DNA of 64,000 bases from a virus (lineage: Duplodnaviria; Caudoviricetes): positions 3,308-67,307 of the IMG/VR virus record IMGVR_UViG_3300015050_000576; one strand, 5' to 3'. Below the pieces are notes generated by a model. The model did not search any database, was not told the DNA's origin, and saw nothing but the letters and a program-made list of their open reading frames with translations. Positions 1 to 15,385 of this stretch are shown piece by piece. The translations under genes and the position numbers were made by a program. Positions within the stretch are counted from its first letter, which is position 1, and each line of letters begins with the position of its first letter.

Positions 1-1
1 C

Positions 2-325
2 GTTCCTCCGCAGCTCGAACCGATCGCCATCCGCCTGCTCAAGACCGAGTTGCGGCCCGGCACCGCCATGAACGACGTCAATGCCATCCTCTCGACTCAG
101 GGCGGCATCCCCGACGGCTATCTGGTCTGGAACTATCTGACCTCGCAGTTCGCGTGGTTCCTCCAGACCAATCAGGACGGTTTGGTCTACATGAACCGCG
201 TTGCGTACGAAACGGACATGTCAGTCGAGTTCTCTACCGACAATTTGCTCGTCAAGGGCTACCAGCGCAACAGCTATAACTACAACGAGCCCCGCGCCCT
301 CTACGGCAGCAACCCGACTTCGTAA
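2..325 (+). CDS. Major capsid protein, C-terminal part (5' end outside window)
   Basis: Frame is open from base 2: VPPQLEPIAIRLLKTELRPGTAMNDVNA...AWFLQT..DGL...R...FSTDNLLVKGYQRNSYNYNEPRALYGS. This matches the C-terminal pattern of podovirus/pelagiphage-type capsid proteins. Confidence 0.85.
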   Translation, partial: VPPQLEPIAIRLLKTELRPGTAMNDVNAILSTQGGIPDGYLVWNYLTSQFAWFLQTNQDGLVYMNRVAYETDMSVEFSTDNLLVKGYQRNSYNYNEPRALYGSNPTS

Positions 326-333
326 CCTTCACA

Positions 334-359
334 CGGGAGAGATCGAAAGGTCTCTCCCG
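334..359 (+). terminator. Strong hairpin after the capsid gene (attenuator or mRNA stabiliser)
   Basis: CGGGAGAGATC-GAAA-GGTCTCTCCCG, 11-bp stem (one G-U pair) with GAAA tetraloop and no long U tract. Confidence 0.6.
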
Positions 360-416
360 CTTCCCATCGCACCCGAAGACTAGGGACGGGTCTATCCCTG
401 TATTAAGGAATCGAAG

Positions 417-1361
417 ATGGCTAACAACACCAACAATCAGTATCTTGTCGACCAGTTCGGAATGCCGCTTTACGGCGTGTCCGGCATGTTGCCGTTCACC
501 GGCAATTACTTCTGGGTCGACGAGACCAACGGCTCCGATGGCAACACTGGCGGCCCGCAGGATCCTTTCGCCACGCTCTCGCAGGCGCTGTCCAAGTGCA
601 CCGCGAACAACAACGACGTGGTGTTCCTGACCGGCTCGGTTCACCCGACCTCGCAGGTTGCATGGAGCAAGAACAAGACGCATCTGATCGGGCTTTCCCC
701 GCCGTCGCAGAACAGCCGGGCGCGCATCGCGGTTGCCAACACCGCGGCCACCACTGGCGCCATCAGCCCGTTCGTCAACGTCACGGCTCAGGGCTGTGTC
801 TTCCAGAACATCGAGGGCTTCGCCGGTATCAACCAGGCGACGACGCAGGTTACGTGGAACGAAGCGGGCGGTTCGAACTACTACAAGAACTGCAACTTCA
901 TCCAGACCGGCAACGCCACTGCTTCGGCTCAGGCCGGCTCCCGCGCGCTGACCATCACCACCGAAGGCGAAAACCTCTTTGAGGATTGCACGATCGGCGG
1001 CGATACGCTGGTTCGCGCCACCAACGCCAACGCCACGCTGGAACTCAAGTCCGGCACCCCTCGCAACGTGTTCAAGCGCTGCGTCTTCCAGTCTTGGGGC
1101 ACTGTCGCCGGCAATACCCAGGTTCTGGCTGGCTCGGGCGGCATGGATCGTTACGCGCTGTTCGAGCAGTGCACGTTCCACAACTTCGGCACGTCGCAGA
1201 CGGTGGCTATCACCAACTCAGGCGGCAGCCCGGCCGGCAACATCGTTCTGAACAACTGCATCGTGGTCGGATCGACCAAGATCGCCACGGCCGGCGTCTA
1301 CGTCAGTCAGATCAGCGCGGCGGGTGGCGGCACCACCTACCTCGGCGTTGCCGCTTCGTAA
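417..1361 (+). CDS. Right-handed beta-helix (pectin-lyase-like) virion protein, possible head decoration or fibre
   Basis: YFWVDETNGSDGNTG..QDPFATLSQAL N-terminal motif; repeated FxxCxF rungs (FKRCVF, FEQCTF, FEDCTI, LNNCIV); AAGGA RBS upstream. Confidence 0.6.
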   Translation: MANNTNNQYLVDQFGMPLYGVSGMLPFTGNYFWVDETNGSDGNTGGPQDPFATLSQALSKCTANNNDVVFLTGSVHPTSQVAWSKNKTHLIGLSPPSQNSRARIAVANTAATTGAISPFVNVTAQGCVFQNIEGFAGINQATTQVTWNEAGGSNYYKNCNFIQTGNATASAQAGSRALTITTEGENLFEDCTIGGDTLVRATNANATLELKSGTPRNVFKRCVFQSWGTVAGNTQVLAGSGGMDRYALFEQCTFHNFGTSQTVAITNSGGSPAGNIVLNNCIVVGSTKIATAGVYVSQISAAGGGTTYLGVAAS

Positions 1362-1384
1362 TCAATCGAGAAGGAAACACAGCA

Positions 1385-1642
1385 ATGAGCCGTGCACGTC
1401 ATGGAATGAGTTCCAAGCCGAAGGCCTACGACGCCAAGGGCTCCAACGTCATGAAAGAGGCGATGGAGAAGAAGCGCGGCGGGTCTGTCGGCAAGGAAGT
1501 CGACAAGCCGGAAGGCAAAAAGGCCAAGATGCGGATGGACAAACGCCCGCGTCGCGCTGCCGGCGGTCGCGTCGGTTCGGACAAGTCGCCGTTCAGTTCG
1601 GCGGCCCGTCCCGGTCAGAACACGGAAGCAGCCAAGCCGTAA
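1385..1642 (+). CDS. Small basic (K/R-rich) protein, head module
   Basis: ATG at 1385 after AAGGAAA; MSRARHGMSSKPKAYDAKG...KKRGGSV...RAAGGRV. Confidence 0.7.
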   Translation: MSRARHGMSSKPKAYDAKGSNVMKEAMEKKRGGSVGKEVDKPEGKKAKMRMDKRPRRAAGGRVGSDKSPFSSAARPGQNTEAAKP

Positions 1643-1839
1643 TGGGCAAGCTCTCGGCAAAGGCCCGCGACAGTCTGCCTAAAGGGGACTTCGCGGGGCC
1701 TGACCGGAGCTATCCCATCAACGACCGGAATCATGCGGCCAATGCTCTGGCCCGGGTCAGTCAACACGGAACGCCGGAGCTAAAGGCCAAGGTCACCGCT
1801 GCGGTTCATCGCAAGTATCCCGAAATGGGGAATTCCTGA
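1642..1839 (+). CDS. Small conserved basic phage protein
   Basis: TAATG overlap with the previous stop; MGKLSAKARDSLPKGDFAGPDRSYPINDRNHAANALARV. Confidence 0.7.
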   Translation: MGKLSAKARDSLPKGDFAGPDRSYPINDRNHAANALARVSQHGTPELKAKVTAAVHRKYPEMGNS

Positions 1840-1840
1840 C

Positions 1841-2167
1841 GTGCCGCTTTACCAGACCATTACCTACACGACGACAGGCACGAAGCAGTCGCTGAACCTG
1901 GATCCGTCGATTGTGCCGTTCAATGCCACGGTAGCGGTCACGCTTACCGCAGGCACGACCTCGTACAAAATGCAGTACAGCGTCACCCCGTTTGACACCG
2001 CGGACGCCAGTTCAAATTGGTTTGACTCCACGGATATTCCCGCCGCCACGACTTCGAGCGCGGTCAGTTCTCTTCCGTTCCCGGTATCTCGCGTCCGGCT
2101 CATTATCGCCGCTCTGTCTGGCGGCAACCTTGTCCTTGAAGTCAACCAGGGCATCAGCACCAACTAG
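1841..2167 (+). CDS. Small beta-rich virion protein
   Basis: GTG start, S/T-rich beta-strand pattern, contiguous with neighbouring genes. Confidence 0.6.
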   Translation: MPLYQTITYTTTGTKQSLNLDPSIVPFNATVAVTLTAGTTSYKMQYSVTPFDTADASSNWFDSTDIPAATTSSAVSSLPFPVSRVRLIIAALSGGNLVLEVNQGISTN

Positions 2168-2177
2168 GTTATCACTC

Positions 2178-3476
2178 ATGAAACAGATTTTGATAGCCTT
2201 CATCCTGTGGATGGTGGCCGGGACTGCTTTTGCCCAAAGCCCGCAAACAGTGAAGCTGTGCGTGTCGACCGGGGGCAACACATGCCCGCTGGTTACGGCA
2301 TCCGCTCCGCTCCCGGTCACGGGCTCGTTCTCGGCCACGCTGAGCGGGTTTACGCCAAACGGCAATTACGCCACGCTAACGGCGACCGCCGCATCCTCCG
2401 CGTCGACTGCCATGCCTGCGGGCGAGGTGGTGGCGTTCCAGAATACTTCCTCGATTGACCTGTCCTGCGTGATCTCCAGCGGGGCGGCGACTGCCACGAC
2501 CAACAAGATTATCCTCCGCGGCGGGGCCTCGGTGTTCCTCACGGTAGGGTCCAACGCCAACGCTGCTTGTATCAACCAGACGGGCTCGGCATCGAACGTA
2601 GTCGTCATGGCCGGCGGCACTGGGCTTGGAACGAACTTTGGTGGCGGCGGTTCTGGCGGTGGTGGAGGCGCGGTTACTCTGGCGTCTGGCGCCGTCGCAT
2701 CTGGCGCGTACTCTTCTGGGTCGATCGCCTCGGGGGCTGTTTCATCGGGCGCCTATGCTGCCGGCGCTCTTGCTGCGGGGGCCTTCGCTACCGGATCCGG
2801 TGTCGATGGCTGGGATATCACTCAGGGCGCCAAGGCGGATGCTGTTTGCGGTACGGCTACCGGCACATGCTCGGTTATCGCGCTGCTGAAATACCTCAAC
2901 AGCGCGGTCAACAGTTCGATCCCAGCCGGCACGGCGCTTATCGGCGACGTCAACCTCCGGCAGGGCGGTACAGCGCTGAGCGCGACGAATGGCGTCTTCT
3001 CCAACCTTCTGCAAGGCAATGCGGTCCTGTCGGCAACAAATGGTCTCTATGCCAACCAACTCCAGAGCAACGCTGTCCTTTCCGCTACGAACCCGACATT
3101 CTCGCAGTCGGTTGCGGGGACGGCCGGTGGCATCTCCAATTATTTCGTACAGCCAGCGGCCTCGGACAACCACGCCACGATCAAGAACGGGGCGGGGCTA
3201 GTTTACCACGTCTCCGTCACCAACAATTCCGCAACGGTGAATTATCTCAGGCTCTACGACGCCGGCACCGGGTTTAATGGTTGCAACAGCGCGACCAATA
3301 TCATCGGGCAGTGGGCTATTCCTGCCTCTACCAGCGTTGGCGGCATTACCTTCCCATTCAACCAGGGGCTAGCGTTCACAACCGGCATTTCGATTTGCGT
3401 CACGTCCGGCTACGCCACGACCGACACGACAAACGCCACGGCTTCAGCCATGAGCGTCAACGTCGGTTACAAGTGA
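2178..3476 (+). CDS. Signal-peptide-bearing S/T/G/A-rich fibre-like protein
   Basis: MKQILIAFILWMVAGTAFA|QSPQ Sec-type signal; GGGGSGGGGG linker; SGA(V/Y)x pentapeptide repeats; C-terminal beta-sandwich-like segment. Confidence 0.7.
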   Translation: MKQILIAFILWMVAGTAFAQSPQTVKLCVSTGGNTCPLVTASAPLPVTGSFSATLSGFTPNGNYATLTATAASSASTAMPAGEVVAFQNTSSIDLSCVISSGAATATTNKIILRGGASVFLTVGSNANAACINQTGSASNVVVMAGGTGLGTNFGGGGSGGGGGAVTLASGAVASGAYSSGSIASGAVSSGAYAAGALAAGAFATGSGVDGWDITQGAKADAVCGTATGTCSVIALLKYLNSAVNSSIPAGTALIGDVNLRQGGTALSATNGVFSNLLQGNAVLSATNGLYANQLQSNAVLSATNPTFSQSVAGTAGGISNYFVQPAASDNHATIKNGAGLVYHVSVTNNSATVNYLRLYDAGTGFNGCNSATNIIGQWAIPASTSVGGITFPFNQGLAFTTGISICVTSGYATTDTTNATASAMSVNVGYK

Positions 3477-3484
3477 GAATGGCC

Positions 3485-4645
3485 ATGAAGCGCTTCTTCA
3501 GGCTTGCAGCCTTCCTCGGGTTGCTGCTGGCCTCTTTCTGGGCCGCATCACCCGCATCGGCCGCGTGCGCGGGCGGGACTTGCTACGGGATTGCCACCGG
3601 CAACTGGAGCACTTCTGGAACGTGGTCCACGTCATCCGGTGGGGCGTCCTGCGCCTGCACGCCCGGCACGGGTGATAACATCGTTTTCGACGCCGGCAGC
3701 AGCGGCAAGACATTCACCATCGACACAAGTTTCAGCATTGGCAATCTGACGGGGACTGCGGCCACGACGGCGGCGCTCACTTACAACGCCGTCACCCTCA
3801 CGGTAACAGGGACGAATTTTACCCTGCTTTCGAGCATGACGGTAACCGCCGCGTCATCGTCTCGAATCACCTCGTTCAATCCTGCGTCCGGGACGCTTGC
3901 CGTTACCACGGCTGGGAAGTCTTTGGGGGCGGTAATCGTCAACGGGACCGCGGGAACGACTGTTCAGCTTCAAGACGATCTGACATTCCTCGCGGGTGGC
4001 AGCCTTACGCTAACCCAGGCTACGTTTGACGCCAATAATCATAACATCACTGGTGGCGCGTTTCTCAGCAATAATTCGAATACAAGGACCATCACGCTTG
4101 GGAGCGGGACTCATACCTTGAATGCCGCGAGCGGAAACGTTTGGGATACGACTACTACTACGGGCCTGACTATGACGCCAAACACTGCGTCGTTAGTCGT
4201 GTCGTCCACTGCCACGGCTGTTCGGAATTTCGTGACTGGTGGTTTGAATTTTCAGGGGTCGTCCTTGTCGCTAGTTAATTCAGGCGCAACGCCTGCTGTT
4301 ATAGCGATTTCTGGCGCCGGGATCATCGCAAGTCTTACCATGACCGCGCCGCTGAGCGTCACCTTCGCATCGGCGACGACATTCACAATCACCAATGCTT
4401 TCACGTTGGCTGGAACGGCATATAATAATATCTTGGATATCGCTACGAACGCCACGGGCGGCGCCTCGGCCATGATCTCTGTAGCGAGTGGGACGCCGAC
4501 GATTGCATGGGCGGCGATAAAGGGGATTACGTTTACGGGCGGCGCGACATTTTCAGCTACAAACTCTTTTGACTTGAAGGGCAATAGCGGGATCACCATC
4601 AGTGGCCCCGCTGGTGGCGGGGGCGGGAAAATCATTGGTGGATAA
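3485..4645 (+). CDS. Signal-peptide-bearing beta-helix / autotransporter-passenger-like protein
   Basis: MKRFFRLAAFLGLLLASFWAASPASA|AC signal; GNWSTSGTWS...PGTGDNIVFD motif; T/G-rich beta rungs. Alternative ATG at 3479. Confidence 0.7.
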   Translation: MKRFFRLAAFLGLLLASFWAASPASAACAGGTCYGIATGNWSTSGTWSTSSGGASCACTPGTGDNIVFDAGSSGKTFTIDTSFSIGNLTGTAATTAALTYNAVTLTVTGTNFTLLSSMTVTAASSSRITSFNPASGTLAVTTAGKSLGAVIVNGTAGTTVQLQDDLTFLAGGSLTLTQATFDANNHNITGGAFLSNNSNTRTITLGSGTHTLNAASGNVWDTTTTTGLTMTPNTASLVVSSTATAVRNFVTGGLNFQGSSLSLVNSGATPAVIAISGAGIIASLTMTAPLSVTFASATTFTITNAFTLAGTAYNNILDIATNATGGASAMISVASGTPTIAWAAIKGITFTGGATFSATNSFDLKGNSGITISGPAGGGGGKIIGG

Positions 4646-4649
4646 AAAA

Positions 4650-7600
4650 GTGACATTGTTTCGCAGTCTCATCGTCGGCGTCGCCGTTTTGTGGGCCAGC
4701 GCAGCCTCTGCGTGGCCTGTTCGTGGGGGTACATCGACTGCGTTTAACAACGGCGTCTACGAGATGCAGCCGAACTTTGTCGGCATCGGCGGCGATTATG
4801 CAACGCTCAACTACCTGAAGAACGCCTCCGGAAACTGGACATTTCGAGATAATCAAGGCACCCCTGCGCCCGATGCTTTGGACGCCTACGGATATTTGCT
4901 TCCTAACAGCGATCCAATCCTCAATCATACAGGCGCTCAATATTCGATCAGAATACCCGCTCTCAAGTACATTCAGGGGAACTGCCCGAACGGGATTACC
5001 GGCGTTTGCTGGGCGATTCCGGTAGAGGGGAAAGGCACGATCGGCAACCCGACAACGATACTTACGAGTTCAGTCGTTGGCGGTACTGCAACTGTTACCA
5101 CGGGCGCGACGACAAGGATCACGTTCTCCGCTCCACAGGCTTTTGAAGCTGGGATGGAGGTGCCGATAAGCGGCACCAGCGGCGTCACCATGACGAACTA
5201 CGTCGGCGGAACGTTCACCGCCCCCACCGGCACCACCACGGCTTGGACAGTGTGTGCCAGCGGGTTGACCACGACGACAATCGAGCTTTGTTTCAACGAC
5301 CAAACCACCAAGCTGCAAACCTCCGGAACCCCCGGCGGGACTACCGTTGTTACCTACGGGCGCAATGCGGTGGGCGTGGCGACAAACGGCGTCATCATCG
5401 GGCGGGTCACGACAAGCCCGGTTAGCATGAACCTTGGTATCGTCACTCAGGACGCTACTACGCCGATCACCTATCGCAACGGCAGGGATGGGTTGGGCCT
5501 TGTCCTGCTGGGTAGCGAATACACTCGCTGGAAAGCCGGGCAGAAGTTTGGTGCCGCTTATCGCGCGAAGACAGTCGCCGCCCGGCCGGGCGTGTGGCGA
5601 CACCTGAATACGATGAATTTGAATTTGGCCCAGGAGGTGAATTGGGCCGACCGGATGCCGGAAGGCTATGTTTCGTATAATTCCCAATACGACCGCCGCG
5701 GCACGACGACCTATGTAGGCACGACGACCAGTAACGGTAACGACTACTCCGCGACTTCTGCCGGCGGCGGTGCGCCGACCGACCGCAAGCAAATCATCCT
5801 ATCATTTGATGCCGCGTCGGTCAGCGTTACGTCAGGCGCGGGCGCTCTTGTCACATGGACGGGGCACGGCTTGTCGACAGGCAGTCCGTTCAATTTCTTT
5901 TTCACGATAGGCGGCGGAGCGTTGCCGGGCGGGGTTTCTTCTGTCCCGACTACATACTATGCGATTACCACATGCGGGAGCTGCGACGCAAATACAATCC
6001 AGTTCGCCACCTCGGTAGCAAACGCCGTCGCTGGAACTGCCGTCACTACGTCCAGCACTGGAACCAGCGTTCTCGCTCATGCCACGGTCATCTCGACCAG
6101 TGTCAGCGTCACGGCTAGCAATCCGAACGTCACATGGACACAGCATAACCTGAGCGTTAACGATCCTATTGCGGTGTCCGGTTCGCTTCCGGCGGTGTTC
6201 AACGATCAGTTCAATTACTACGTTGAGTCGGTCGTCAATGCGAACACGATCACCCTCAAGGGCTCGATTGGAGGGAGCGTCATAACTCCGGCTACGTCCG
6301 CGACGTTTTCCGCTGTTCGCAGCCCGACCCTCAACTTGGACGGCGTAACCTATCCAATCCGGAGCATCGCCAATCAAGGCGTAGGAGCCGCCACAACTTC
6401 CTATCCGATCCCGCGCAGTGCTGCTGGCGTCAAACTGTACGCCTCCATGGTCCTGGATCTGGTCATGGGCTCTTGGCAGAAAAACGGCGGTGACGTATCG
6501 CGCGGCACGCAATACTATTCAAGCGGCTGGCCCCCAGAAGTTGCTTTGCGGGATTGCATTGAGATCGGGGCGCACTGTTGGTTCCCGATGCCGCGCTATG
6601 TATTAGACGGCGTTAATGGGATCACTGATTATCCTGCCGGCCTTGCGGCGATGATCCGCAGCACCGCGCCAAGCTGGCATATCCCAAGATATGAAATTAC
6701 CAACGAGACGTGGAACGGCGCCGCGGATTTTCCGGCGACTCGAATTTTTACAGGCCACGCACTTATGTACAAGGCTACGGCTGGGTGGGTTGACGGAACG
6801 CTTAACCAGCTGGTGGGTAAAATCGGCTCTGTGATGGGGCAGTCCATCAATGCCGCCTATGGTGGCGGCGCCCCGGCCAACCGCTACAAAATGATGGTAG
6901 GCGTCCAGACCTTTAACTTCACGGGAGCGAATGCTGCTACAACCGTAGCGCCGCGCCTGACTGCAACAGACTACATCGGGCAGTCCACGTCGCCGCAGAC
7001 TGGCTATACCAAATCGGCGGCGTCAGATTGGGTCACCGGTATTGCGTCCGCGCAGTATTTCGCGCCGGGTTACACGGCCACCTCGGTCGCGACCACGCTG
7101 GGAGCTGCGTATTCGTCTGGGGTCATTCGCGCGCAGATTGCGGGGACCACACTCACTCTGAATTCAATCCGATCCGCCACAACTCCGGCGTTCGGGATTG
7201 GTTCTGTACTCACGCAGGGGCCAGGAATCACCCAAACAACCGTGCTTAGCGGAGGCCCCACCACTTGGACTATAGATGTCGATCAAGGGATCATCGACGC
7301 AAATACTGATATCGCCTACATCTCGTCGGGTAGTGATCCAGCGGCTCTCACGGAATATCTGGACTCGTCATACCGAACTGCGCAATTCAGCGGGTCGATC
7401 AGCGGGACGACCTTAACGGTTGCCCCTGGTGTGACCGGCTACATTTTCCCGACTGGCGGCAGTGGCGGTAATTTCTTGATGGGGCCAAGTGTTGCGCCGT
7501 ATACGCAGATCACAGCGCAAACCAGCGGCACGACGAACAAAGACGGCACTTACACAGTATCGGTCAGCCAGTCGGTGGCATCGGAGACGATGACCTCGCA

Positions 7601-8060
7601 TGGCGTGTTTGACGTACCGACCAACAATTTGATGTCACAGCGCGCGGTGACATTTGCCAACTCATATACAAATCAGTGGACGGTAGCGCTGGGGGTGGAC
7701 GGCTACGAAGGCGGATATTCCCCAGACTTTACTGCTGCTGGTCTGACTCCAGCAGAGCGAATGTACGCTGCCGGCAAGAACGTCGCCGTTACGCCGCTGT
7801 CGCCAACGGGTATCTACGGAATTGTCTTGGAGAATGCGCAGAACGCAAAGGACGCTGGGGTCAGTTTCCCGAGCCAGTTCAACTATACCGGCATCACCCC
7901 GGCCTCAAACGCATGGAGCGCGATTGACGACCTGTTCATGCCTGAACCGTACTTGATAATCGACGCCTACAAGTCCATCAACTTCCTGTTGAAGCGCGAC
8001 ATGCAGTTGCCTGGGTATATGAACGACAACAGCCCGATGTTCTTGGAGAAGTCCGCCTAG
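4650..8060 (+). CDS. Large signal-peptide-bearing fibre or depolymerase-like protein (about 1136 aa)
   Basis: GTG start after GGTGG; MTLFRSLIVGVAVLWASAASA|W signal; internal HCWFPMP...RYEITNETWN motif reminiscent of glycoside-hydrolase TIM barrels; repeated WTGHGLSTG / WTQHNLSVND beta domains. Confidence 0.65.
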   Translation: MTLFRSLIVGVAVLWASAASAWPVRGGTSTAFNNGVYEMQPNFVGIGGDYATLNYLKNASGNWTFRDNQGTPAPDALDAYGYLLPNSDPILNHTGAQYSIRIPALKYIQGNCPNGITGVCWAIPVEGKGTIGNPTTILTSSVVGGTATVTTGATTRITFSAPQAFEAGMEVPISGTSGVTMTNYVGGTFTAPTGTTTAWTVCASGLTTTTIELCFNDQTTKLQTSGTPGGTTVVTYGRNAVGVATNGVIIGRVTTSPVSMNLGIVTQDATTPITYRNGRDGLGLVLLGSEYTRWKAGQKFGAAYRAKTVAARPGVWRHLNTMNLNLAQEVNWADRMPEGYVSYNSQYDRRGTTTYVGTTTSNGNDYSATSAGGGAPTDRKQIILSFDAASVSVTSGAGALVTWTGHGLSTGSPFNFFFTIGGGALPGGVSSVPTTYYAITTCGSCDANTIQFATSVANAVAGTAVTTSSTGTSVLAHATVISTSVSVTASNPNVTWTQHNLSVNDPIAVSGSLPAVFNDQFNYYVESVVNANTITLKGSIGGSVITPATSATFSAVRSPTLNLDGVTYPIRSIANQGVGAATTSYPIPRSAAGVKLYASMVLDLVMGSWQKNGGDVSRGTQYYSSGWPPEVALRDCIEIGAHCWFPMPRYVLDGVNGITDYPAGLAAMIRSTAPSWHIPRYEITNETWNGAADFPATRIFTGHALMYKATAGWVDGTLNQLVGKIGSVMGQSINAAYGGGAPANRYKMMVGVQTFNFTGANAATTVAPRLTATDYIGQSTSPQTGYTKSAASDWVTGIASAQYFAPGYTATSVATTLGAAYSSGVIRAQIAGTTLTLNSIRSATTPAFGIGSVLTQGPGITQTTVLSGGPTTWTIDVDQGIIDANTDIAYISSGSDPAALTEYLDSSYRTAQFSGSISGTTLTVAPGVTGYIFPTGGSGGNFLMGPSVAPYTQITAQTSGTTNKDGTYTVSVSQSVASETMTSHGVFDVPTNNLMSQRAVTFANSYTNQWTVALGVDGYEGGYSPDFTAAGLTPAERMYAAGKNVAVTPLSPTGIYGIVLENAQNAKDAGVSFPSQFNYTGITPASNAWSAIDDLFMPEPYLIIDAYKSINFLLKRDMQLPGYMNDNSPMFLEKSA

Positions 8061-8827
8061 CGACGCGGGGTCGCAACGAAGTTAAATGCCCGGAACGGAT
8101 AGATCCCGCATTTCCTGAATTCGTCGTGACTCAAGGGGCCTTTCTCGTATAAAAAATCGATAAAGGTAAAAACATCGTAGTTGAGACTGGACGTCAGGTA
8201 GTCGAATAGCAAGTTCCGATCAAGGCCAGCATTGGCATCGGCGCCGCATTCGAAAATGATATTTGGCCGGCATCTCATAATGAAGTTTCTGCCGCCAGTG
8301 AGCGCGGCGAGTTCAGCACCCTCGATGTCGATTTTAACCAGATCAAAGGGGCCCAGGTCGAGAGCGTCGAGAGTGGTGATCTTCACCTCGTAGCGGTTTA
8401 CCGGGTCGGTTGACGGATTGTCGCCCTGCAAGCGGCTAAAGCCCGGCTTGGCTAGATTTTCTTCGAACACAGCGGCTCCAAGCCGATCTGAAACGGCGAC
8501 CTGTTTTACGCGCACATTAGGGAACTTGCGTGCGAGCCAGCCAGCCTTAGTCGGCGACGCTTCAATGGCGGCATGGTTGCCGCCGGGCGCAAACTTCATG
8601 GCGAGGCTTAGAAACGACCCGATATGACAGCCGACGTCCAAGACGTTGGATCTTTTGTTCAGCAGCCGCCCCAGCACCTTAGGAAGGTGCCGTTCTTCGT
8701 AAAATACTTCCGCTAGTTCCGGGTGCGCCGACCGATGGCGGGATGCGAGCACCCATTGGATATTCTTGGCGACGCCCTCAAGCGGAGACGCAACGAGCCT
8801 GGACTTCAGTTCGAGAGTCTTATTCAT
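8057..8827 (-). CDS. FkbM-family SAM-dependent methyltransferase (moron, antisense to late operon)
   Basis: VLDVGCHIG, AIEASP, VAVSD, DLVKIDIEGAELAALTGG, PNIIFE motifs. Start at MNKTLELK overlaps the upstream stop (ATGA). Confidence 0.85.
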   Translation of the reverse strand: MNKTLELKSRLVASPLEGVAKNIQWVLASRHRSAHPELAEVFYEERHLPKVLGRLLNKRSNVLDVGCHIGSFLSLAMKFAPGGNHAAIEASPTKAGWLARKFPNVRVKQVAVSDRLGAAVFEENLAKPGFSRLQGDNPSTDPVNRYEVKITTLDALDLGPFDLVKIDIEGAELAALTGGRNFIMRCRPNIIFECGADANAGLDRNLLFDYLTSSLNYDVFTFIDFLYEKGPLSHDEFRKCGIYPFRAFNFVATPRR

Positions 8828-8940
8828 GGTCGTTTGCGCCTTTTGGAGGTGTCGTCCGGCATCCCAAATCCAGTGAGAATGCAATAGAAAAGAAGCGCCA
8901 CCCAAGCTGCCATGAATAATCGGATAAACAGGACGTCCAT
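8824..8940 (-). CDS. 38-aa single-TM membrane peptide (not in ORF track)
   Basis: MDVLFIRLFMAAWVALLFYCILTGFGMPDDTSKRRKRP*; its TGA overlaps the FkbM ATG. Confidence 0.6.
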   Translation of the reverse strand: MDVLFIRLFMAAWVALLFYCILTGFGMPDDTSKRRKRP

Positions 8941-8953
8941 TTAAATCACATGC

Positions 8954-9073
8954 TCATTTGCGCCCGATTCCTCGTAGAAGGAACTTGCTGGCAAGGTAGC
9001 TAAGAAGGACCGTCGCGGCCAACGAAAGCCACGCGGCCAACCCGAAGTACAACGAGTTAAATTCAGAGTGCAT
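8954..9073 (-). CDS. 39-aa single-TM membrane peptide (not in ORF track)
   Basis: MHSEFNSLYFGLAAWLSLAATVLLSYLASKFLLRGIGRK*; a -10-like TAGCGT lies 6 nt before the ATG. Confidence 0.55.
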   Translation of the reverse strand: MHSEFNSLYFGLAAWLSLAATVLLSYLASKFLLRGIGRK

Positions 9074-9151
9074 CCCGCCACGCTACCCCACGTTGCCCAT
9101 CCCCGCCAAGGGTCAAGATAGGTCTCCGCAAGGGGATAAAGGTTCAAAGTT

Positions 9152-9174
9152 AACCGCCTCCGGGCGGTTTTTTG
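9152..9174 (+). terminator. Intrinsic terminator in the late operon
   Basis: AACCGCC-TCCG-GGCGGTT followed by TTTTG. Confidence 0.75.
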
Positions 9175-9190
9175 TTGGGAAATCCGAATA

Positions 9191-9877
9191 ATGACATCAA
9201 GCGGCACCACCTCATTCGCGATGTCGAATGCTAGCATTGCGGTGGCGGCCTACTCGCGCCTGAAAATTCGGAGGACGTCTTTGCTCGCCGAGCATATGCA
9301 GGACGCCTATACCGAATTCAACCTGATGCAGTCCAAGTTCTCAAATCTTCCTGTAAACCTCTGGACTGTAGATTTGGTCAGCGTTCCCTTGGTGGCGGGG
9401 ACGGCAACCTATGACGTCGACCCGGACACCATCCAGATCCTGGATGCTTACCTTTCGCTCAACTCCAGCACCGAGAACGACCGGCTCATCTTCCCGATAT
9501 CGCGCACGGAATACGCCTCCTATCCCAATAAGACGGCTCAAGGCGTGCCTTCCGTGTTCTGGTACGATCGCCTCATCTCGCCGACAATAACGCTCTGGTA
9601 CGTCCCTGACGCAACCAGCACCTACACCCTGAAATACTATCGATGCGTCCAGATCCAAGACGCTAACTTCCCCGGCGGCGAGACCCCGAACGTCCCATAC
9701 CGTTGGCTGGATTGCATGGTCGCTGAGCTGGCACACCGGCTCTCCCGCATATGGGCTCCTGAGCTTGAAGCCGTCCGGGAAAAGGACGCCGAGAAGGCGT
9801 GGAACATCGCGGCCACGCAGGACGTCGAGAATGTTGACTTGAACATCATGCCGCAAGTCGGGGGCTACTACCGATGA
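9191..9877 (+). CDS. Head-tail adaptor / connector protein
   Basis: MTSSGTTSF...FNLM.SK.SN.PVNLWT...GTATY...R.EYASYPNKT.QG.P...WYDR...P.RWLDC; family pattern and position. Confidence 0.7.
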   Translation: MTSSGTTSFAMSNASIAVAAYSRLKIRRTSLLAEHMQDAYTEFNLMQSKFSNLPVNLWTVDLVSVPLVAGTATYDVDPDTIQILDAYLSLNSSTENDRLIFPISRTEYASYPNKTAQGVPSVFWYDRLISPTITLWYVPDATSTYTLKYYRCVQIQDANFPGGETPNVPYRWLDCMVAELAHRLSRIWAPELEAVREKDAEKAWNIAATQDVENVDLNIMPQVGGYYR

Positions 9878-10530
9878 CAGGCGGGTGGAAAAGGGATTAT
9901 GACGCCCCGGCCGTCGTCTACATGGTGACCAACTCAACGAACGGGAAACGATACATCGGAGTGACCAGCAAGGGGACTGGACGTCGGCTGAGGGAGCATT
10001 TCTCAGCGGCGAAACGCTCGGGGAATGGTGCTTTTTACAAGGCAATTCGCAAGCATGGCCGGGGTTCTTTCACAATCCAAATTCTCAAAGAATGTCCATC
10101 CCTCCGAGATGCTTACGCCGAAGAAATAAAATCGATTGCGGATTTGAAGCCTGAATACAACAGCACTCTCGGGGGAGACGGCCAATTAGGTCGTCCACTG
10201 TCTGAAGAGGCGAAGAGGCGGATAAGCCTCGCGAATAAAGGGAAACAATTTCACCTTGGTAAGCGCCACACCGACGCGACCAAGACGCTCTTGCGTCAGA
10301 TGAACAGCACGCCTGAAGCTCAGGCTAGGTGGCGTCAGTTTTCGCGCATGGGGCCATCTGCCAGATCCCGCCGCGTTGTTTGTCTTGACGATGGTATTCA
10401 ATTTGAAAGCGCCGCCAGCGCCGCAACTCATTACGGCGTATCAAAAAGTTCACTTATTGAACTTTGCCGCGGGCAGAAATATCGCAAATCAGTCGGCGGC
10501 AGGCGGTTCGCATATGAGGAGGCGGCGTAG
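9874..10530 (+). mobile_element. Free-standing GIY-YIG homing endonuclease with NUMOD3/NUMOD1-type DNA-binding repeats
   Basis: VYMVTNSTNGKRYIGVT...R...H...YN; LSEEAKRRISLA; VVCLDDGIQFESAASAA. Confidence 0.85.
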
Positions 10531-10938
10531 ATGACTGGGCCGTGGCACCCTACCGGGCGCGCTCGCGTCAGCATGACGAGTCCGCAAGCTCACGCGATAT
10601 GCGATGATTGCGGATTTCGATATTTGCACGTCGACCTGCGTTGGAAAGTCCAGTGGGCCGGCGCCAAGGTCCAGAACCTGCGCTTGCTGGTCTGCAAGAC
10701 GTGCTGGGACAATCCGCAGCCGCAGCTCAAGGCCATCGTCATCCCCGCGGATCCTTTGCCGATCTACAACCCGCGCCCCGAGGCTTACGCCGAAACCGTC
10801 CCCAATTTTATAGCGACGGAATCCGAAACGTTCTCTGGGTCTGACCTGACGACCCAAGGCGGCGACAACATCATTTGGGAGCTGGGCGACACGCCTCTTC
10901 CCGATCCGAACAACCCCGCTCTCTATCCGGACTCCTGA
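10531..10938 (+). CDS. Conserved CxxC-CxxC head-tail region protein
   Basis: AICDDCGFRY...LLVCKTCWDNPQPQL. Confidence 0.65.
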   Translation: MTGPWHPTGRARVSMTSPQAHAICDDCGFRYLHVDLRWKVQWAGAKVQNLRLLVCKTCWDNPQPQLKAIVIPADPLPIYNPRPEAYAETVPNFIATESETFSGSDLTTQGGDNIIWELGDTPLPDPNNPALYPDS

Positions 10939-13386: not shown

Positions 13387-14480
13387 CCCCATTTGGAAGT
13401 TCTTCGGTTATCCTCAATGCGGCGAATACGCTGCTCTATACCTGCCCGCCTGGATGCCGGGTTAAAATCACGGATATCGTGTTTTCGAACACGAATACCG
13501 TCTATGTCATCAAAGTTGGCATGTGGAAGGGGCCCTCGGTTGTAGTCAATGGCCATCCTGTCGGCCTGGTCGATAGCTGGCCATCTCCTTTCAGCGTCTA
13601 TTTGAATGAAGGGGAGTCGCTATACGGCACGGCCACGATAGCCGGTTGGGTAACGTGCACGTTCAATTACGAGAGTGTCGGCGGCGTAAATGCGGCCTTG
13701 CCAACGGATACGGTCAACTATGATCCGCCCGGGCTGTTTACCGACGTGACCGGCAAGACCCCGATGGGCTCAACTCTGGTAGTTGGGCAGAATACCATGA
13801 CGGGCCTGTTCCTCGGGCAGTCGATGGTTTCCAACAACGTCATCGGCGTATCGACGCCATACGTTGCGGGGCCGACGGTTGCGAACATGCACATCAACGG
13901 TGCGTTCTATCGCGCAGAAGGGGCCATGCTGGGGTGCGGCGGGAATAGTGCAGACAATCCGGCTTCGAGGTTCGGCGACAAGGTAATTGCCGGCGGCGCG
14001 GCCGATCGGTTCAACGTCATCAATCGCTCCATCGGGTCGACCAATCCGCAGCATTTCGCCAAGACCGGATATTTCGGCGGGCACATCAGCCTTGCGGCGA
14101 GCAACCTTCGGGCATCGGCTCAGCAGGCCAGTTTTGTCGACCTTGAATGGGGAAGCCTTGCGGCGGTTTCCGGAATGGCGGCAACGGACTTTCGCGATGG
14201 CATCCGCGCCGTTGTAGCGTGGCTCAGGGAATGCGGTATCTACGCCCCGGTGTTTGTTGCCAAGCACACGCGGTTCGGATCCCTCAGTCTTGCAGGCGCT
14301 CCTGCGGTGCGTTCTGGCGTCGATATGGCGCTGAGCAGCGCGCTTGGGATTTTCGATGGGCCGGACATGGACACCATCCCGGACTCTGAACGCAACGGCG
14401 GCGGGCATCTCCTGACTACCGGAGCAAATTCGTCGGCGCAGCTTCGCTATAACCATCATGCCGCATTCTTTGGCTGGTAA
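13383..14480 (+). CDS. Tail-associated protein with SGNH/SASA-like esterase domain; probable ATA start
   Basis: The frame is open from 13374. AGGAGG at 13372-77 lies 5 nt before ATA at 13383. LFLGQS nucleophile-like motif and GGGHL near the C-terminus. The track start at 13479 is internal. Confidence 0.6.
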   Translation: MTPFGSSSVILNAANTLLYTCPPGCRVKITDIVFSNTNTVYVIKVGMWKGPSVVVNGHPVGLVDSWPSPFSVYLNEGESLYGTATIAGWVTCTFNYESVGGVNAALPTDTVNYDPPGLFTDVTGKTPMGSTLVVGQNTMTGLFLGQSMVSNNVIGVSTPYVAGPTVANMHINGAFYRAEGAMLGCGGNSADNPASRFGDKVIAGGAADRFNVINRSIGSTNPQHFAKTGYFGGHISLAASNLRASAQQASFVDLEWGSLAAVSGMAATDFRDGIRAVVAWLRECGIYAPVFVAKHTRFGSLSLAGAPAVRSGVDMALSSALGIFDGPDMDTIPDSERNGGGHLLTTGANSSAQLRYNHHAAFFGW

Positions 14481-14680: not shown

Positions 14681-15385
14681 TTGAACTATTCAGATTTCGT
14701 CGCCACGATCGCCAATGAAACGGTCATCACCGCGACGGACCCGAACTTTGTCCAGATTCTACCGCAGGCTATCGCTTATGCGGAAGACCGGATTTACCGT
14801 GAGCTTGATTTGCTCTCGACGGTAGTTCGGGACAGTTCGGCCCTGACCTCGGGCAACCGCAACTACACCTTGCCGCAAAACAATGGCCGGTTTGTCGTCA
14901 CCAACGCATTCAACCTGATTACGCCAGCAGCCACCACCATTCCGGATAACGGCACGCGAACCCAGATGATCCCGGTGTCCCGCGACTTCCTGGATGCGGT
15001 TTATGGGAGTTCAACGGGGGCAGGTCAGCCGACCTATTACGCGCCTATCACGGATCAGGACTGGATTGTCGGGCCGTGGCCGGACGCGGCTTATACCATC
15101 GAGGTGGTTGGCACGATCCAGCCTACGCCCCTTAGCGCGAGCAACACCACAACGTATCTCACGCTGTACCTGTCGGACTTGTTCGTCGCGGCGGCGATGA
15201 TCTTCATGAGCGGGTATCAACAGAACTTCGGCGCTCAGGCCGACAACCCGCAGATGGCGACGAGCTGGTCATCCGAATACGACAAACTGTTCGCGTCCGC
15301 CAACGTGGTTGAACAGCGCAAGAAGTACGCAGCGGGCGGATGGGGCTCGCTTTCACCAACTCCGGTGGCAACGCCAAGTCGATAA
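14681..15385 (+). CDS. Second head-tail adaptor-like protein
   Basis: TTG start; MNYSDFVATIA...F..ILPQAI.YAE.RIYRELDL...G.P.YYA...GP.PD..Y..E. Confidence 0.7.
   Translation: MNYSDFVATIANETVITATDPNFVQILPQAIAYAEDRIYRELDLLSTVVRDSSALTSGNRNYTLPQNNGRFVVTNAFNLITPAATTIPDNGTRTQMIPVSRDFLDAVYGSSTGAGQPTYYAPITDQDWIVGPWPDAAYTIEVVGTIQPTPLSASNTTTYLTLYLSDLFVAAAMIFMSGYQQNFGAQADNPQMATSWSSEYDKLFASANVVEQRKKYAAGGWGSLSPTPVATPSR

What the first reader, a model, noticed from the sequence alone, without database searches (positions are those of the whole stretch)
2178..8060. Three consecutive large fibre-like proteins with Sec signal peptides inside the head gene module
Seen: MKQILIAFILWMVAGTAFA|Q, MKRFFRLAAFLGLLLASFWAASPASA|A and MTLFRSLIVGVAVLWASAASA|W, each with basic N-terminus, hydrophobic core and AxA site, followed by S/T/G-rich Cys-containing beta domains. 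Established: tailed-phage structural proteins assemble in the cytoplasm and normally lack signal peptides. Inference: these are exported late in infection, fold oxidatively in the periplasm, and either dock on virions at lysis or are released as free matrix-degrading or adhesive factors. That would be an unusual periplasmic branch of virion assembly.
Basis: partly seen in the sequence, partly recalled or inferred. Interest (0 to 1): 0.75.

Follow-up and report, generated by a model that had tools for sequence, protein, structure and literature searches.

The report
Phage cassette of exported sugar-targeting proteins
A 67-kb tailed phage, probably of Bradyrhizobium-type soil bacteria, carries three adjacent late genes whose products (a trimeric fibre, a beta-helix-like protein and a large sugar-cutting enzyme) have genuine secretion signals, so they most likely act on the host's surface polysaccharide from the cell envelope and are not built into the virus particle.

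Summary
Observation confirmed. Window 2178-3476 (A), 3485-4645 (B) and 4650-8060 (C) are three tightly packed co-oriented genes, each starting with a textbook signal peptide. The signals are features of the families. In A, 109 of 114 full-length homologs have one, and 99% of those have an even number of Cys in the mature part. Relatives of C carry Sec signals, Tat signals or none.

The "fibre" label holds only in part. A is predicted to be a trimeric fibre with a jelly-roll tip. B looks like a beta-helix but was not folded. C is a single clan GH-A (beta/alpha)8 glycosidase with conserved Asn-Glu and Glu catalytic residues. C matches no Pfam family and no solved structure by sequence.

Bacterial relatives of C carry Tat signals and lie in polysaccharide-synthesis loci of Bradyrhizobium and kin. 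The genes occupy a hypervariable cargo slot after the major head gene. That slot is 1.4-6.4 kb in 51 relatives and 8.9 kb here, and the two nearest relatives lack all three genes.

Best reading (about 0.55): an accessory, exported module that degrades and binds host polysaccharide. Docking onto virions at lysis is not excluded (about 0.12). This scan has noted similar signal-bearing phage fibre and enzyme modules on other DNA. I found no paper that describes them.

The parts
2178..3476 (+). Gene A: exported trimeric fibre-like protein (432 aa). It has an N-terminal cupin-like beta domain (about residues 55-150), a Gly/Ala/Ser-rich shaft and a C-terminal jelly-roll tip (about 318-432). Its 8 Cys fall in 4 local pairs.
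   Evidence: Translation. More than 680 homologs, nearly all with a signal. AF2 model, both end domains at pLDDT about 90. VIA-align Z 7.1-7.6, generic jelly rolls including the Bd2133 fibre tip. Homotrimer model.
2178..2234 (+). Signal peptide of A (19 aa, AFA|Q)
   Evidence: A signal is present in 109 of 114 full-length homologs.
3485..4645 (+). Gene B: exported Thr/Ser/Gly-rich repeat protein (386 aa), probably a beta-helix. It has 4 Cys just after the signal.
   Evidence: Translation. 194 homologs, 44 with and 69 without a signal, sharing the same mature start motif (W-V-G-G...W). The nearest ESM Atlas clusters are viral. No Pfam or PDB relative. B was not folded.
3485..3562 (+). Signal peptide of B (26 aa, ASA|AC)
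   Evidence: homolog N-termini
4650..8060 (+). Gene C: exported clan GH-A type glycoside hydrolase (1136 aa). It is one (beta/alpha)8 barrel spanning residues about 33-1117, with several beta domains inserted in its loops.
   Evidence: Translation. 414 cluster representatives. AF2 mean pLDDT 90.6, pTM 0.90. VIA-align Z 23.4 (GH51 1pz2, 309 residues aligned, rmsd 3.5), followed by GH39, GH30, GH5, GH79 and others.
4650..4712 (+). Signal peptide of C (21 aa from the GTG start, ASA|W)
   Evidence: Homolog P0290 begins with a near-identical signal and the same mature W-P-V-R-G start.
6702..6707 (+). Asn-Glu pair of C (N684-E685 in P0003 numbering), just after the strand at residues 679-681. This is the expected acid/base position of clan GH-A.
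   Evidence: Glu is invariant and Asn at least 90% conserved in 141 sequences. Both are invariant in 89 sequences. Strand position. Coordinates.
7707..7709 (+). Glu of the G-Y-E-G-G motif of C (E1019 in P0003 numbering), inside strand 1014-1022. This is the expected nucleophile position of clan GH-A.
   Evidence: At least 90% conserved and invariant in the 9 closest sequences. Strand. Coordinates.
8057..8905 (-). Context: antisense FkbM-type methyltransferase gene abutting the end of C. It is probably further cargo directed at polysaccharide.
   Evidence: PHROG methyltransferase family; Pfam PF05050. An FkbM gene also lies in one bacterial locus that holds a C homolog (L022).
9152..9169 (+). 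Context: terminator-like hairpin followed by a T run at the end of the cargo region, just before the conserved 228-aa late gene (9191-9877).
   Evidence: a consensus match only

Best explanation
A, B and C form an accessory cassette carried in the late operon of a temperate podovirus-like phage. It is not part of the conserved virion.

Late in infection all three proteins are sent through the inner membrane by the Sec pathway. Relatives of C use Sec or Tat. Signal peptidase I cleaves them, and they fold in the periplasm with disulfide bonds.

C is a clan GH-A type glycosidase related to Tat-exported enzymes encoded in the surface-polysaccharide loci of Bradyrhizobium-like bacteria. It cuts the host's EPS, capsule or O-antigen-like polysaccharide while this crosses the periplasm, or after release at lysis or by the host's type II secretion. 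A (a trimeric fibre with a jelly-roll tip) and B (a beta-helix-like protein) bind or process the same glycan.

The likely benefit is twofold. The dying cell and its debris lose or mask the polysaccharide that would trap progeny or admit other phages. The surrounding slime is also thinned for progeny spread.

Shown here: the signals and their conservation, the fold and catalytic motifs of C, the genomic context of its bacterial homologs, the predicted trimer of A, and the dispensability of the cassette among relatives. Inferred: the substrate, the site of action and the benefit to the phage.
For: 1. Export.
- The three N-termini are canonical signals.
- In the A family, 109 of 114 full-length homologs are signal-bearing, and 99% of those have an even Cys count.
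- Close relatives of C use either Sec or Tat signals on the same mature N-terminus. The syntenic relative L031 has A (Sec), a 308-aa signal protein and C (Tat) in the same slot.
- On a tree of the C core, the export state needs at least 18 changes among 83 rows. The signal therefore behaves as a swappable module on an otherwise unchanged protein.

2. C is an enzyme, not a fibre.
- AF2 gives pLDDT 90.6.
- VIA-align gives Z 23.4 to a GH51 enzyme (309 residues aligned, rmsd 3.5 A) and Z 17-22 to GH39, GH30, GH5 and GH79 enzymes, with the barrel spanning residues 33-1117.
- The Asn-Glu pair after one strand and a Glu on a later strand are conserved.

3. Link to host polysaccharide. Nine bacterial homologs were found, in Bradyrhizobium, Afipia, Xanthobacteraceae and Ramlibacter. 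Most carry Tat signals. In the one locus scanned with Pfam (L025), the neighbours are a Wzx-type flippase, GT4 transferases, an acyltransferase, a carbamoyltransferase and a GspG-like pseudopilin. Other loci show look-alike neighbours by sequence only.

4. Accessory status.
- The interval from the major head gene to the conserved 228-aa late gene is 1.36-6.45 kb in 51 relatives and 8.9 kb here.
- The nearest relatives (head protein 91% and 81% identical) lack A, B and C.
- A was found in only 4 of 401 genomes of the Bradyrhizobium family (2 of them at E below 1e-12). It was found in none of the five genomes that hold a chromosomal C homolog.

5. No docking module was recognised. The N-terminal motif that the tail fibre (10939-13386) shares with fibres of relatives is absent from A, B and C.

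6. A as a trimeric fibre. The homotrimer model of residues 205-432 scored 0.78 (ipSAE), against 0.00 for the best of 3 controls. In the tool's calibration, 20 of 30 proteins solved as pairs of one chain reached the mark, against 1 of 23 solved as single chains. The runs agree in at least 81% of contacts, and the partner's pLDDT is at least 84. The tool notes that these counts hold only roughly here, because my own alignment and three copies were used.

7. Signal-bearing neighbours in related cassettes carry classic depolymerase or fibre domains: a right-handed beta-helix, and the endosialidase chaperone S74.
Against: - No experiment and no trained signal-peptide predictor stand behind the export call.
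- The substrate of C is unknown, and no activity was tested.
- In relatives the same slot can hold fibre-like genes without signals, including one with a tail-fibre C-terminal domain (L059). Position alone therefore does not prove the genes are not structural.
- Exported proteins in relatives share modules with the virion fibre. One is a signal-bearing protein 47% identical to the fibre's C-terminal domain (L040). Another is a signal-bearing gene in the tail-fibre position of L031, 51% identical to the fibre. This could equally mean that exported fibres end up on particles.
- A has both a conserved N-terminal and a conserved C-terminal domain, which would suit a docking end plus a binding end.
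- No promoter or terminator of its own sets the cassette apart.
Confidence: 0.55

Rival explanations
1. Periplasmic branch of virion assembly. A, and perhaps B and C, are true particle appendages. They fold with disulfides in the periplasm and dock onto cytoplasm-built particles once the holin opens the inner membrane, before or as the outer membrane breaks.
For: A is predicted to be a trimeric fibre with conserved N- and C-terminal domains. In L031 a gene in the tail-fibre position, 51% identical to this phage's fibre, has a signal-like N-terminus in place of the usual fibre N-terminal motif, and that motif sits on a separate 157-aa protein just upstream. Signal-bearing proteins elsewhere carry the tail fibre's C-terminal domain or an S74 fibre chaperone domain. 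From general knowledge: fibres can attach to finished particles in lysates, as in T4 in-vitro complementation, and holin lesions briefly mix the two compartments inside an intact outer membrane.
Against: The nearest relatives build virions without A, B or C. C is a whole-length TIM-barrel enzyme with free-living bacterial homologs and no recognised particle-binding domain. Signal-less and signal-bearing members of the B and C families share the same mature N-terminus, which argues against an N-terminal docking role. I found no precedent in the literature searches. A similar bold reading on another phage was later priced at 10/100 in this scan.
Confidence: 0.12
2. Receptor masking or superinfection exclusion. 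The exported fibre A, and B, are decoys related to receptor-binding proteins. They bind the polysaccharide receptor during its export or on the surface. This blocks other phages and stops progeny from adsorbing to the dying cell. C is a helper.
For: Exported proteins of relatives reuse the tail fibre's C-terminal, presumably receptor-binding, domain (L040). The A-B gene pair recurs in many contigs without C (L032, L036, L040, L041, L042). The antisense FkbM methyltransferase next door suggests that surface-sugar modification is a theme of this slot. Known analogues, from general knowledge: T5 Llp, and the O-antigen-modifying genes of P22-like phages.
Against: The genes lie in the late operon with no promoter of their own, so they would act only late, when exclusion matters less. 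A's own tip is not similar to this phage's fibre tip, and no match was seen between them. Binding was not tested.
Confidence: 0.15
3. Lysogenic conversion cargo. The cassette is expressed from the prophage and remodels the host's exopolysaccharide for the host's benefit (biofilm, symbiosis). This would be like the chromosomal Tat-exported homologs or WceF.
For: Bacterial homologs of C are cellular genes in polysaccharide loci. The cargo slot also holds an antisense methyltransferase that could be expressed in lysogens.
Against: A, B and C are co-oriented and tightly packed within the late operon, 10, 8 and 4 nt from the preceding stop codons. Promoter-like sites are no more frequent than in shuffled sequence. 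A is rare in bacterial genomes.
Confidence: 0.08
4. Lysis accessory. The exported glycosidase and its partners weaken a glycan layer of the envelope (periplasmic glucans, or polysaccharide anchored in the outer membrane) to complete lysis in a heavily encapsulated host.
For: In some relatives the signal-bearing block lies directly before the endolysin gene (L002). Export before lysis would put the enzyme where holin-independent action is possible.
Against: Here the cassette is 18 kb from the endolysin gene at 25964-26869. Relatives lyse without it. No known lysis system uses a clan GH-A enzyme or a trimeric fibre (general knowledge).
Confidence: 0.05

Closest known systems
Exported glycanases encoded in bacterial polysaccharide-synthesis clusters: Pantoea stewartii WceF (PMC7949094), the Vi-antigen periplasmic depolymerase VexL (PMC6003464), alginate lyase AlgL (PMC8829089), and the GH39-like PslG (the last from my own knowledge)
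   Same: They have an export signal (Tat in WceF). They act on the cell's own polymer in or beyond the periplasm. Bacterial homologs of C sit in such clusters with Tat signals. WceF also shows traffic of folds between phage proteins and cellular exported glycanases.
   Different: C is encoded in a phage late operon, not in a synthesis cluster. Its fold is a decorated (beta/alpha)8 barrel, not the beta-helix of WceF or VexL. It matches no Pfam family and no solved structure by sequence. Two further exported non-enzyme-like partners, A and B, accompany it.
Virion-bound phage depolymerases and tailspikes (P22, Sf6 and HK620 tailspikes, Klebsiella phage depolymerases, endosialidases), and soluble phage-induced depolymerases seen in lysates
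   Same: These are phage-encoded enzymes directed at host surface polysaccharide. They are expressed late, and their modules are exchanged between phages. Relatives of the cassette contain beta-helix and S74 chaperone domains.
   Different: Those enzymes lack secretion signals and fold in the cytoplasm. They are usually trimeric beta-helices with an N-terminal particle-binding domain. C has a signal and a TIM-barrel fold, and no such domain was recognised.
Bdellovibrio bacteriovorus MAT (mosaic adhesive trimer) fibres (PMC10769870)
   Same: These are signal-bearing exported trimeric fibres built from phage-fibre modules, with beta-sandwich, TNF-like or S74 tips that bind glycans. The tip of A aligns with the Bd2133 tip at Z 7.1 (103 residues aligned, rmsd 3.2 A, 15% identity).
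   Different: MAT fibres are cellular genes of a predator and are about 1000 aa long with a shared N-terminal domain. A is phage-borne and 432 aa long. The structural match is at the level of a common fold only.
Signal-bearing genes inside phage late operons: lambda lom and bor, T5 Llp, spanins and SAR endolysins (general knowledge), and the signal-peptide genes of unknown function in Porphyromonas phages (PMC10367356)
   Same: They show that tailed phages use the host Sec pathway for non-virion proteins encoded among structural genes.
   Different: Those are small membrane, lipoprotein or lysis proteins. Here the products are large fibre-like, beta-helix-like and glycosidase proteins arranged as a cassette, with Sec and Tat signals swapped among relatives.

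Membership tests
Sec/SPase I signal peptides | Positively charged n-region, an uncharged hydrophobic h-region of 7-15 or more residues, and small residues at -3 and -1 | tested here: met
   A, B and C have 1-3 Lys/Arg, no Asp/Glu, uncharged runs of 16-20 residues and Ala-x-Ala. This was my own heuristic, not a trained predictor.
Sec/SPase I signal peptides | The signal is kept across homologs while its sequence drifts | tested here: met
   A: 109 of 114. B: 44 of 113. C: at least 37 of 138, which is an undercount because some Tat signals were missed.
Sec/SPase I signal peptides | Cleavage and periplasmic location shown experimentally | not testable with these tools
   Needs N-terminal sequencing, PhoA fusions or cell fractionation.
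Bacterial lipoproteins (SPase II), considered for B | A lipobox with an invariant Cys at +1 | tested here: not met
   B has A-S-A-A-C, which fits a loose lipobox pattern. Many signal-bearing homologs have no Cys at that place, for example A-D-A|A-S-R-F.
Clan GH-A glycoside hydrolases | (beta/alpha)8 barrel fold | tested here: met
   Z 23.4 to GH51 1pz2 (309 residues aligned, rmsd 3.5 A). Fifty rows of clan GH-A families at Z 16 or above, on a model with pLDDT 90.6.
Clan GH-A glycoside hydrolases | An Asn-Glu acid/base pair at the end of strand 4 and a Glu nucleophile at the end of strand 7 | tested here: met
   N684-E685 follow strand 679-681, and E1019 lies in strand 1014-1022. E685 is invariant; N684 and E1019 are at least 90% conserved in 141 sequences. 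The numbering of the barrel strands and the distance between the two Glu were not measured, because no coordinates were available.
Clan GH-A glycoside hydrolases | Sequence membership of an existing family (Pfam/CAZy) | tested here: not met
   No Pfam hit for C or for 25 homologs. No PDB hit by sequence or by profile. CAZy itself was not searched.
Clan GH-A glycoside hydrolases | Glycosidase activity on a defined substrate | not testable with these tools
   Needs an enzyme assay on host EPS, LPS and capsule.
Virion-bound phage tailspikes and fibres | An N-terminal particle-binding domain shared with the phage's other fibres | tested here: inconclusive
   The N-terminal motif shared by the 815-aa fibre and the fibres of relatives is absent from A, B and C. 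An unrecognised docking domain cannot be ruled out.
Virion-bound phage tailspikes and fibres | Conserved presence in the virion module of close relatives | tested here: not met
   The relatives with 91% and 81% identical head protein lack A, B and C. The slot varies from 1.36 to 6.45 kb in 51 relatives.
Virion-bound phage tailspikes and fibres | Presence in purified particles | not testable with these tools
   Needs virion proteomics or cryo-EM.
Trimeric fibre architecture (for A) | A homotrimer with an intertwined shaft and a C-terminal knob | tested here: met
   Score 0.78 against 0.00 for the best of 3 controls. Calibration: 20 of 30 proteins solved as pairs and 1 of 23 solved as single chains reached the mark. 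At least 81% contact agreement; pLDDT at least 84. This is a model only, and the counts hold only roughly.
Polysaccharide-cluster exported glycanases (WceF, VexL, AlgL and PslG type) | The gene lies in a polysaccharide biosynthesis and export cluster | tested here: not met
   Met for the bacterial homologs (L025, with look-alike neighbours elsewhere). The phage gene itself lies in a late operon.
Morons (lambda lom/bor type) | Its own promoter and terminator inside a late operon | tested here: inconclusive
   Three promoter-like sites in 11 kb, against 4.5 expected from shuffles, and none before A. There is a terminator-like hairpin only at 9152-9169. The scan covers sigma-70 consensus promoters only.

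The most novel reading that the evidence does not exclude
Some tailed phages of Gram-negative soil bacteria route part of their host-recognition gear (trimeric fibres and polysaccharide-cutting proteins) through Sec or Tat. The proteins fold with disulfides in the periplasm and join the cytoplasm-built particle only in the seconds between holin triggering and outer-membrane rupture. That would be a two-compartment assembly pathway for a tailed phage.
Probability: 0.12. Interest if true: 0.9.

Novelty: new variant of a known kind. Interest (0 to 1): 0.62.

Why it matters
Phage enzymes that cut host polysaccharide are thought of as parts of the particle, or as cytoplasmic proteins freed at lysis. 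Here, a widespread set of uncultured phages puts host secretion signals, Sec or Tat interchangeably, on a fibre, a beta-helix-like protein and a glycosidase. The sets found are more than 680 relatives of A and 414 cluster representatives of C.

If the best reading holds, these phages attack or mask the host's surface polymer from inside the envelope during the late phase. That would bear on progeny release, on trapping by cell debris, on superinfection and on slime structure in soil and rhizobial systems.

C and its relatives also define a large clan GH-A-like enzyme family. It matches no Pfam family and no solved structure by sequence, and it is shared between phages and the polysaccharide loci of Bradyrhizobium-type bacteria. 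It is a candidate new glycoside hydrolase family and a source of specific depolymerases.

If the rival reading holds instead, the textbook rule that tailed phages assemble wholly in the cytoplasm would need an exception.

Tried and rejected
- Pfam and PHROGs gave nothing for A, B or C. The only hit was one weak PHROG match of unknown function for A. Pfam also gave nothing for 25 C homologs, and only one glycine-rich domain in 52 B homologs.
- The INPHARED phage collection gave no DNA match for 1-12000 and no protein match for C.
- Sequence and profile searches of the PDB found no relative of A, B or C.
- Foldseek against the PDB with the whole C model gave no match at E of 0.001 or better. The fold appeared only with the Foldseek-independent search.
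- For A, the structural matches (Z 7.6 or lower) are generic jelly rolls and cupins and do not identify a family.
Two alignments were too diverse for pattern scans.
- Lipoprotein reading of B: rejected, because homologs lack the +1 Cys.
- Homology between A and the signal-less 420-aa protein in the same slot of the nearest relative L059: none.
- The third gene of the L001 cassette (1169 aa, Tat signal) has an E-P-W-N-E motif. BLAST does not show it to be homologous to C (best E 0.028), so I do not count it as a C homolog. The second gene of that cassette is likewise unrelated to B.
- My any-start signal screen is loose and gave false positives on crude ORFs, so counts of signal-bearing neighbours in other loci are approximate. 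The stricter screen missed some evident Tat signals, for example P0259, P0260 and P0300.
- Literature searches found no description of signal-bearing fibre or glycosidase cassettes in tailed phages. The library lacks most subscription-journal papers.


Full report
**What is there**

The window is bases 3308-67307 of a single-contig 67,307-bp phage genome. The late genes run in this order:
- large terminase (56038)
- portal (59008)
- the major head gene, which crosses the genome start and ends at window 325. Its 91%-identical ortholog hits PHROG major head families.
- a 314-aa protein and small ORFs
- the three genes of the finding
- an antisense FkbM methyltransferase (8057-8905)
- a conserved 228-aa late protein (9191-9877, PHROG 12985, function unknown)
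- a GIY-YIG homing endonuclease
- an 815-aa tail fibre
- an SU10-type adaptor (14681-15385, PF24175)
- a tail-collar fibre
- a 675-aa virion protein
- ejection proteins
- an endolysin with a peptidoglycan-binding domain

Gene A is 2178-3476, B is 3485-4645 and C is 4650-8060. C starts at GTG after GGTGGA. The three are separated by 8 and 4 nt.

**The signals are real**

Each N-terminus has a short basic n-region, 16-20 uncharged hydrophobic residues and Ala-x-Ala. No trained predictor was available, so I relied on comparative evidence.

- **A.** A has more than 680 homologs in metagenomes. Of 114 full-length ones listed, 109 begin with a signal of the same design but unrelated sequence. Of those 109, 99% have an even number of Cys in the mature part. 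That is the signature of disulfide-bonded exported proteins. A's own eight Cys fall in four local pairs, and so do C's eight.
- **B.** The B family splits into 44 signal-bearing and 69 signal-less members, all sharing the same mature start motif. The signal-bearing ones have about twice the Cys content.
- **C.** C has 414 cluster representatives at E of 0.001 or better. Its closest relatives carry either Sec signals or clear twin-arginine signals in front of the same mature start, and many more distant ones have no signal. On a tree of the catalytic core, the export state needs at least 18 changes among 83 rows. The signal is therefore an exchangeable address label on an unchanged protein.

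A Tat label on the ortholog of a Sec-labelled protein is hard to explain unless export itself is the selected property.

**What the proteins are**

*Protein C.* With an 89-sequence alignment, C folds with mean pLDDT 90.6 and pTM 0.90. Only the signal and the last 20 residues are of low confidence. Foldseek on the whole model found nothing significant. The Foldseek-independent search gave Z 23.4 to a GH51 arabinofuranosidase (309 residues aligned, rmsd 3.5 A). It gave Z 16-22 to some fifty GH39, GH30, GH5, GH79, GH53, GH42, GH10 and GH44 enzymes, with the aligned barrel running from residue 33 to 1117.

C is thus one (beta/alpha)8 barrel with several beta domains inserted in its loops. It is not a fibre. 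The Asn-Glu pair (window 6702-6707) follows a strand, and a Glu in G-Y-E-G-G (7707-7709) lies in a later strand. The first Glu is invariant, and the others are at least 90% conserved in 141 sequences. This is the catalytic layout of clan GH-A. No Pfam family and no solved structure is detectable by sequence or profile, so this is probably an undescribed glycoside hydrolase family.

*Protein A.* A has two confident beta domains, residues 55-150 and 318-432, joined by a Gly/Ala/Ser-rich repeat region that is of low confidence in the monomer. The C-terminal domain is a jelly roll. Its matches, at Z 7.1-7.6, are generic: viral capsid jelly rolls, TNF/C1q-like domains, a phage cement protein and the tip of the Bdellovibrio Bd2133 fibre.

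Three copies of residues 205-432 are predicted to form an intertwined trimer. The score was 0.78, against 0.00 for the best of 3 controls. In calibration, 20 of 30 proteins solved as pairs and 1 of 23 solved as single chains reached the mark. Contact agreement was at least 81% and pLDDT at least 84. The tool says the counts hold only roughly for my alignment and three copies. So A really is fibre-like.

It has the repeat pattern of a parallel beta-helix. Its nearest ESM Atlas clusters are viral.

**Where the relatives live**

Nine bacterial homologs of C were found, in Bradyrhizobium lablabi, B. jicamae, two other Bradyrhizobium strains, Afipia, a Xanthobacteraceae MAG, two alphaproteobacterial MAGs and Ramlibacter. 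Most have Tat signals. In L025 the neighbours are a Wzx-type flippase, GT4 glycosyltransferases, an acyltransferase, a carbamoyltransferase, a GDSL esterase and a GspG-like pseudopilin. Other loci show look-alike pseudopilin, transferase and FkbM genes. The cellular form is therefore an exported enzyme of a surface-polysaccharide locus. It resembles WceF (PMC7949094; Tat signal, role in chain-length control), VexL (PMC6003464) or AlgL (PMC8829089). The pseudopilin neighbour suggests that type II secretion is possible.

A behaves differently. It was absent from the five genomes that hold a chromosomal C homolog. It was found in only 4 of 401 genomes of that family, 2 of them convincingly. It behaves as a phage gene.

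**The cassette recurs**

- A metagenomic relative (L031, head protein 53% identical) has, in the same place, A (Sec), a 308-aa signal protein and C with a Tat signal.
- A-B pairs recur in L032, L036, L040, L041 and L042.
- An unrelated 57.6-kb phage (L001) has an A homolog (Sec), a 336-aa signal protein and a 1169-aa Tat-signal protein after its internal virion proteins. The last two are not demonstrably homologous to B and C.
- Other viral contigs hold runs of up to eight consecutive signal-flagged genes around A or C homologs (L002, L008, L015).
- Some of those genes carry a right-handed beta-helix domain or the endosialidase chaperone S74 domain.

This scan has reported similar signal-bearing fibre and enzyme modules in other phages. 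Those notes are leads, not evidence.

**Structural or accessory?**

The conserved 228-aa late protein has more than 599 relatives in viral contigs. In the 51 loci that also hold the head gene, the interval between the two genes ranges from 1.36 kb (two or three small genes) to 6.45 kb. Here it is 8.9 kb. The two nearest relatives, with head proteins 91% and 81% identical, lack A, B and C. One of them instead carries two signal-less fibre-like genes in this slot.

The slot is therefore a cargo site, and the three genes are dispensable for building this kind of particle. None of the three has the N-terminal motif that the 815-aa fibre shares with the fibres of relatives.

Two observations keep the docking idea alive.
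- In L031 the gene in the tail-fibre position, 51% identical to this phage's fibre, has a signal-like N-terminus followed by two Cys in place of that motif. The motif itself sits on a separate 157-aa protein upstream.
- A signal-bearing protein in L040 is 47% identical to the fibre's C-terminal domain.

**Mechanism proposed**

- *Shown:* genuine, conserved export signals; an enzyme fold with conserved catalytic residues; kinship with exported enzymes of polysaccharide loci; a predicted trimeric fibre; accessory status.
- *Inferred:* late in infection the three proteins accumulate in the periplasm. C cuts the host's exported polysaccharide in transit or after release. A and B bind or process the same polymer. 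The net effect is to strip or mask the polymer on the dying cell and its debris, and to loosen the slime around it.

I give this 0.55. The rivals are docking on particles at lysis (0.12), receptor masking or exclusion as the main role (0.15), lysogenic conversion (0.08) and help with lysis (0.05).

**Novelty**

Exported polysaccharide-trimming enzymes are known in bacteria, and soluble or virion-bound depolymerases are known in phages. The nearest report on phage genes with signals that I found is one paragraph on Porphyromonas phages (PMC10367356). It names capsid, spanin and unknown genes. Exported phage-like fibres are known as cellular genes in Bdellovibrio (PMC10769870). I did not find a description of a late-operon cassette of Sec/Tat-addressed fibre, beta-helix-like and clan GH-A proteins in a tailed phage. 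I class it as a new variant of known kinds.

Noticed in passing
L031:11499-13913 (with L031:11045-11518): In a syntenic relative, the gene in the tail-fibre position (804 aa, 51% identical to this phage's 815-aa fibre over residues 103-564) starts with a signal-peptide-like N-terminus followed by two Cys. The usual fibre N-terminal motif is encoded separately on a 157-aa protein just upstream.
   Followed up: partly
window 13479-14480; L012:4019-4909: The 333-aa protein after the tail fibre has a homolog in another viral contig (26% identity over 236 aa). That homolog carries a twin-arginine signal and a sialate O-acetylesterase (SASA, PF03629) domain. The window's own copy has no signal and no Pfam hit.
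   Followed up: partly
window 417-1361: A 314-aa Cys-rich protein (7 Cys) lies directly after the major head gene. It is conserved in several relatives (L059, L066, L069, L114) and has no Pfam or PHROG family. From the sequence alone it looks like a right-handed beta-helix, possibly a head-associated spike or enzyme.
   Followed up: no
window 326-9190 and loci L059-L138: The interval between the major head gene and the conserved 228-aa late gene is a hypervariable cargo slot. It measures 1.36 to 6.45 kb in 51 relatives and 8.9 kb here, and its contents vary widely: fibre-like genes, a homing endonuclease and unknown 375-600-aa proteins.
   Followed up: partly
window 8057-8905 (-): An antisense FkbM-family methyltransferase abuts the stop codon of C, overlapping it by 4 nt. 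An FkbM gene 28% identical to it lies in the Bradyrhizobium lablabi locus that holds a C homolog (L022:18476-19282).
   Followed up: partly
L022:9875-11954: In Bradyrhizobium lablabi the chromosomal C homolog is split over three consecutive ORFs of 214, 352 and 152 aa. It may be a frameshifted or decaying copy.
   Followed up: no
L022, L025, L028 (about 9100-9800 in each): A GspG-like pseudopilin gene (PF08334 in L025) lies directly upstream of the Tat-signal C homolog in three bacterial loci. This hints that the cellular enzyme leaves the cell by type II secretion.
   Followed up: partly
window 14681-15385: This protein matches the SU10 adaptor family (PF24175, E 3e-19), so the tail is likely of the kuravirus/SU10 adaptor-nozzle type. 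The 228-aa protein at 9191-9877 has no assigned function.
   Followed up: no
A-family homologs P0004-P0122: In the list of N-termini, many A-family signals appear to end just before a Gln (for example A-L-A|Q or A-F-A|Q). My rough cleavage rule counted Gln at +1 in 29 of 109, which is probably an undercount. An N-terminal Gln can cyclise to pyroglutamate.
   Followed up: partly
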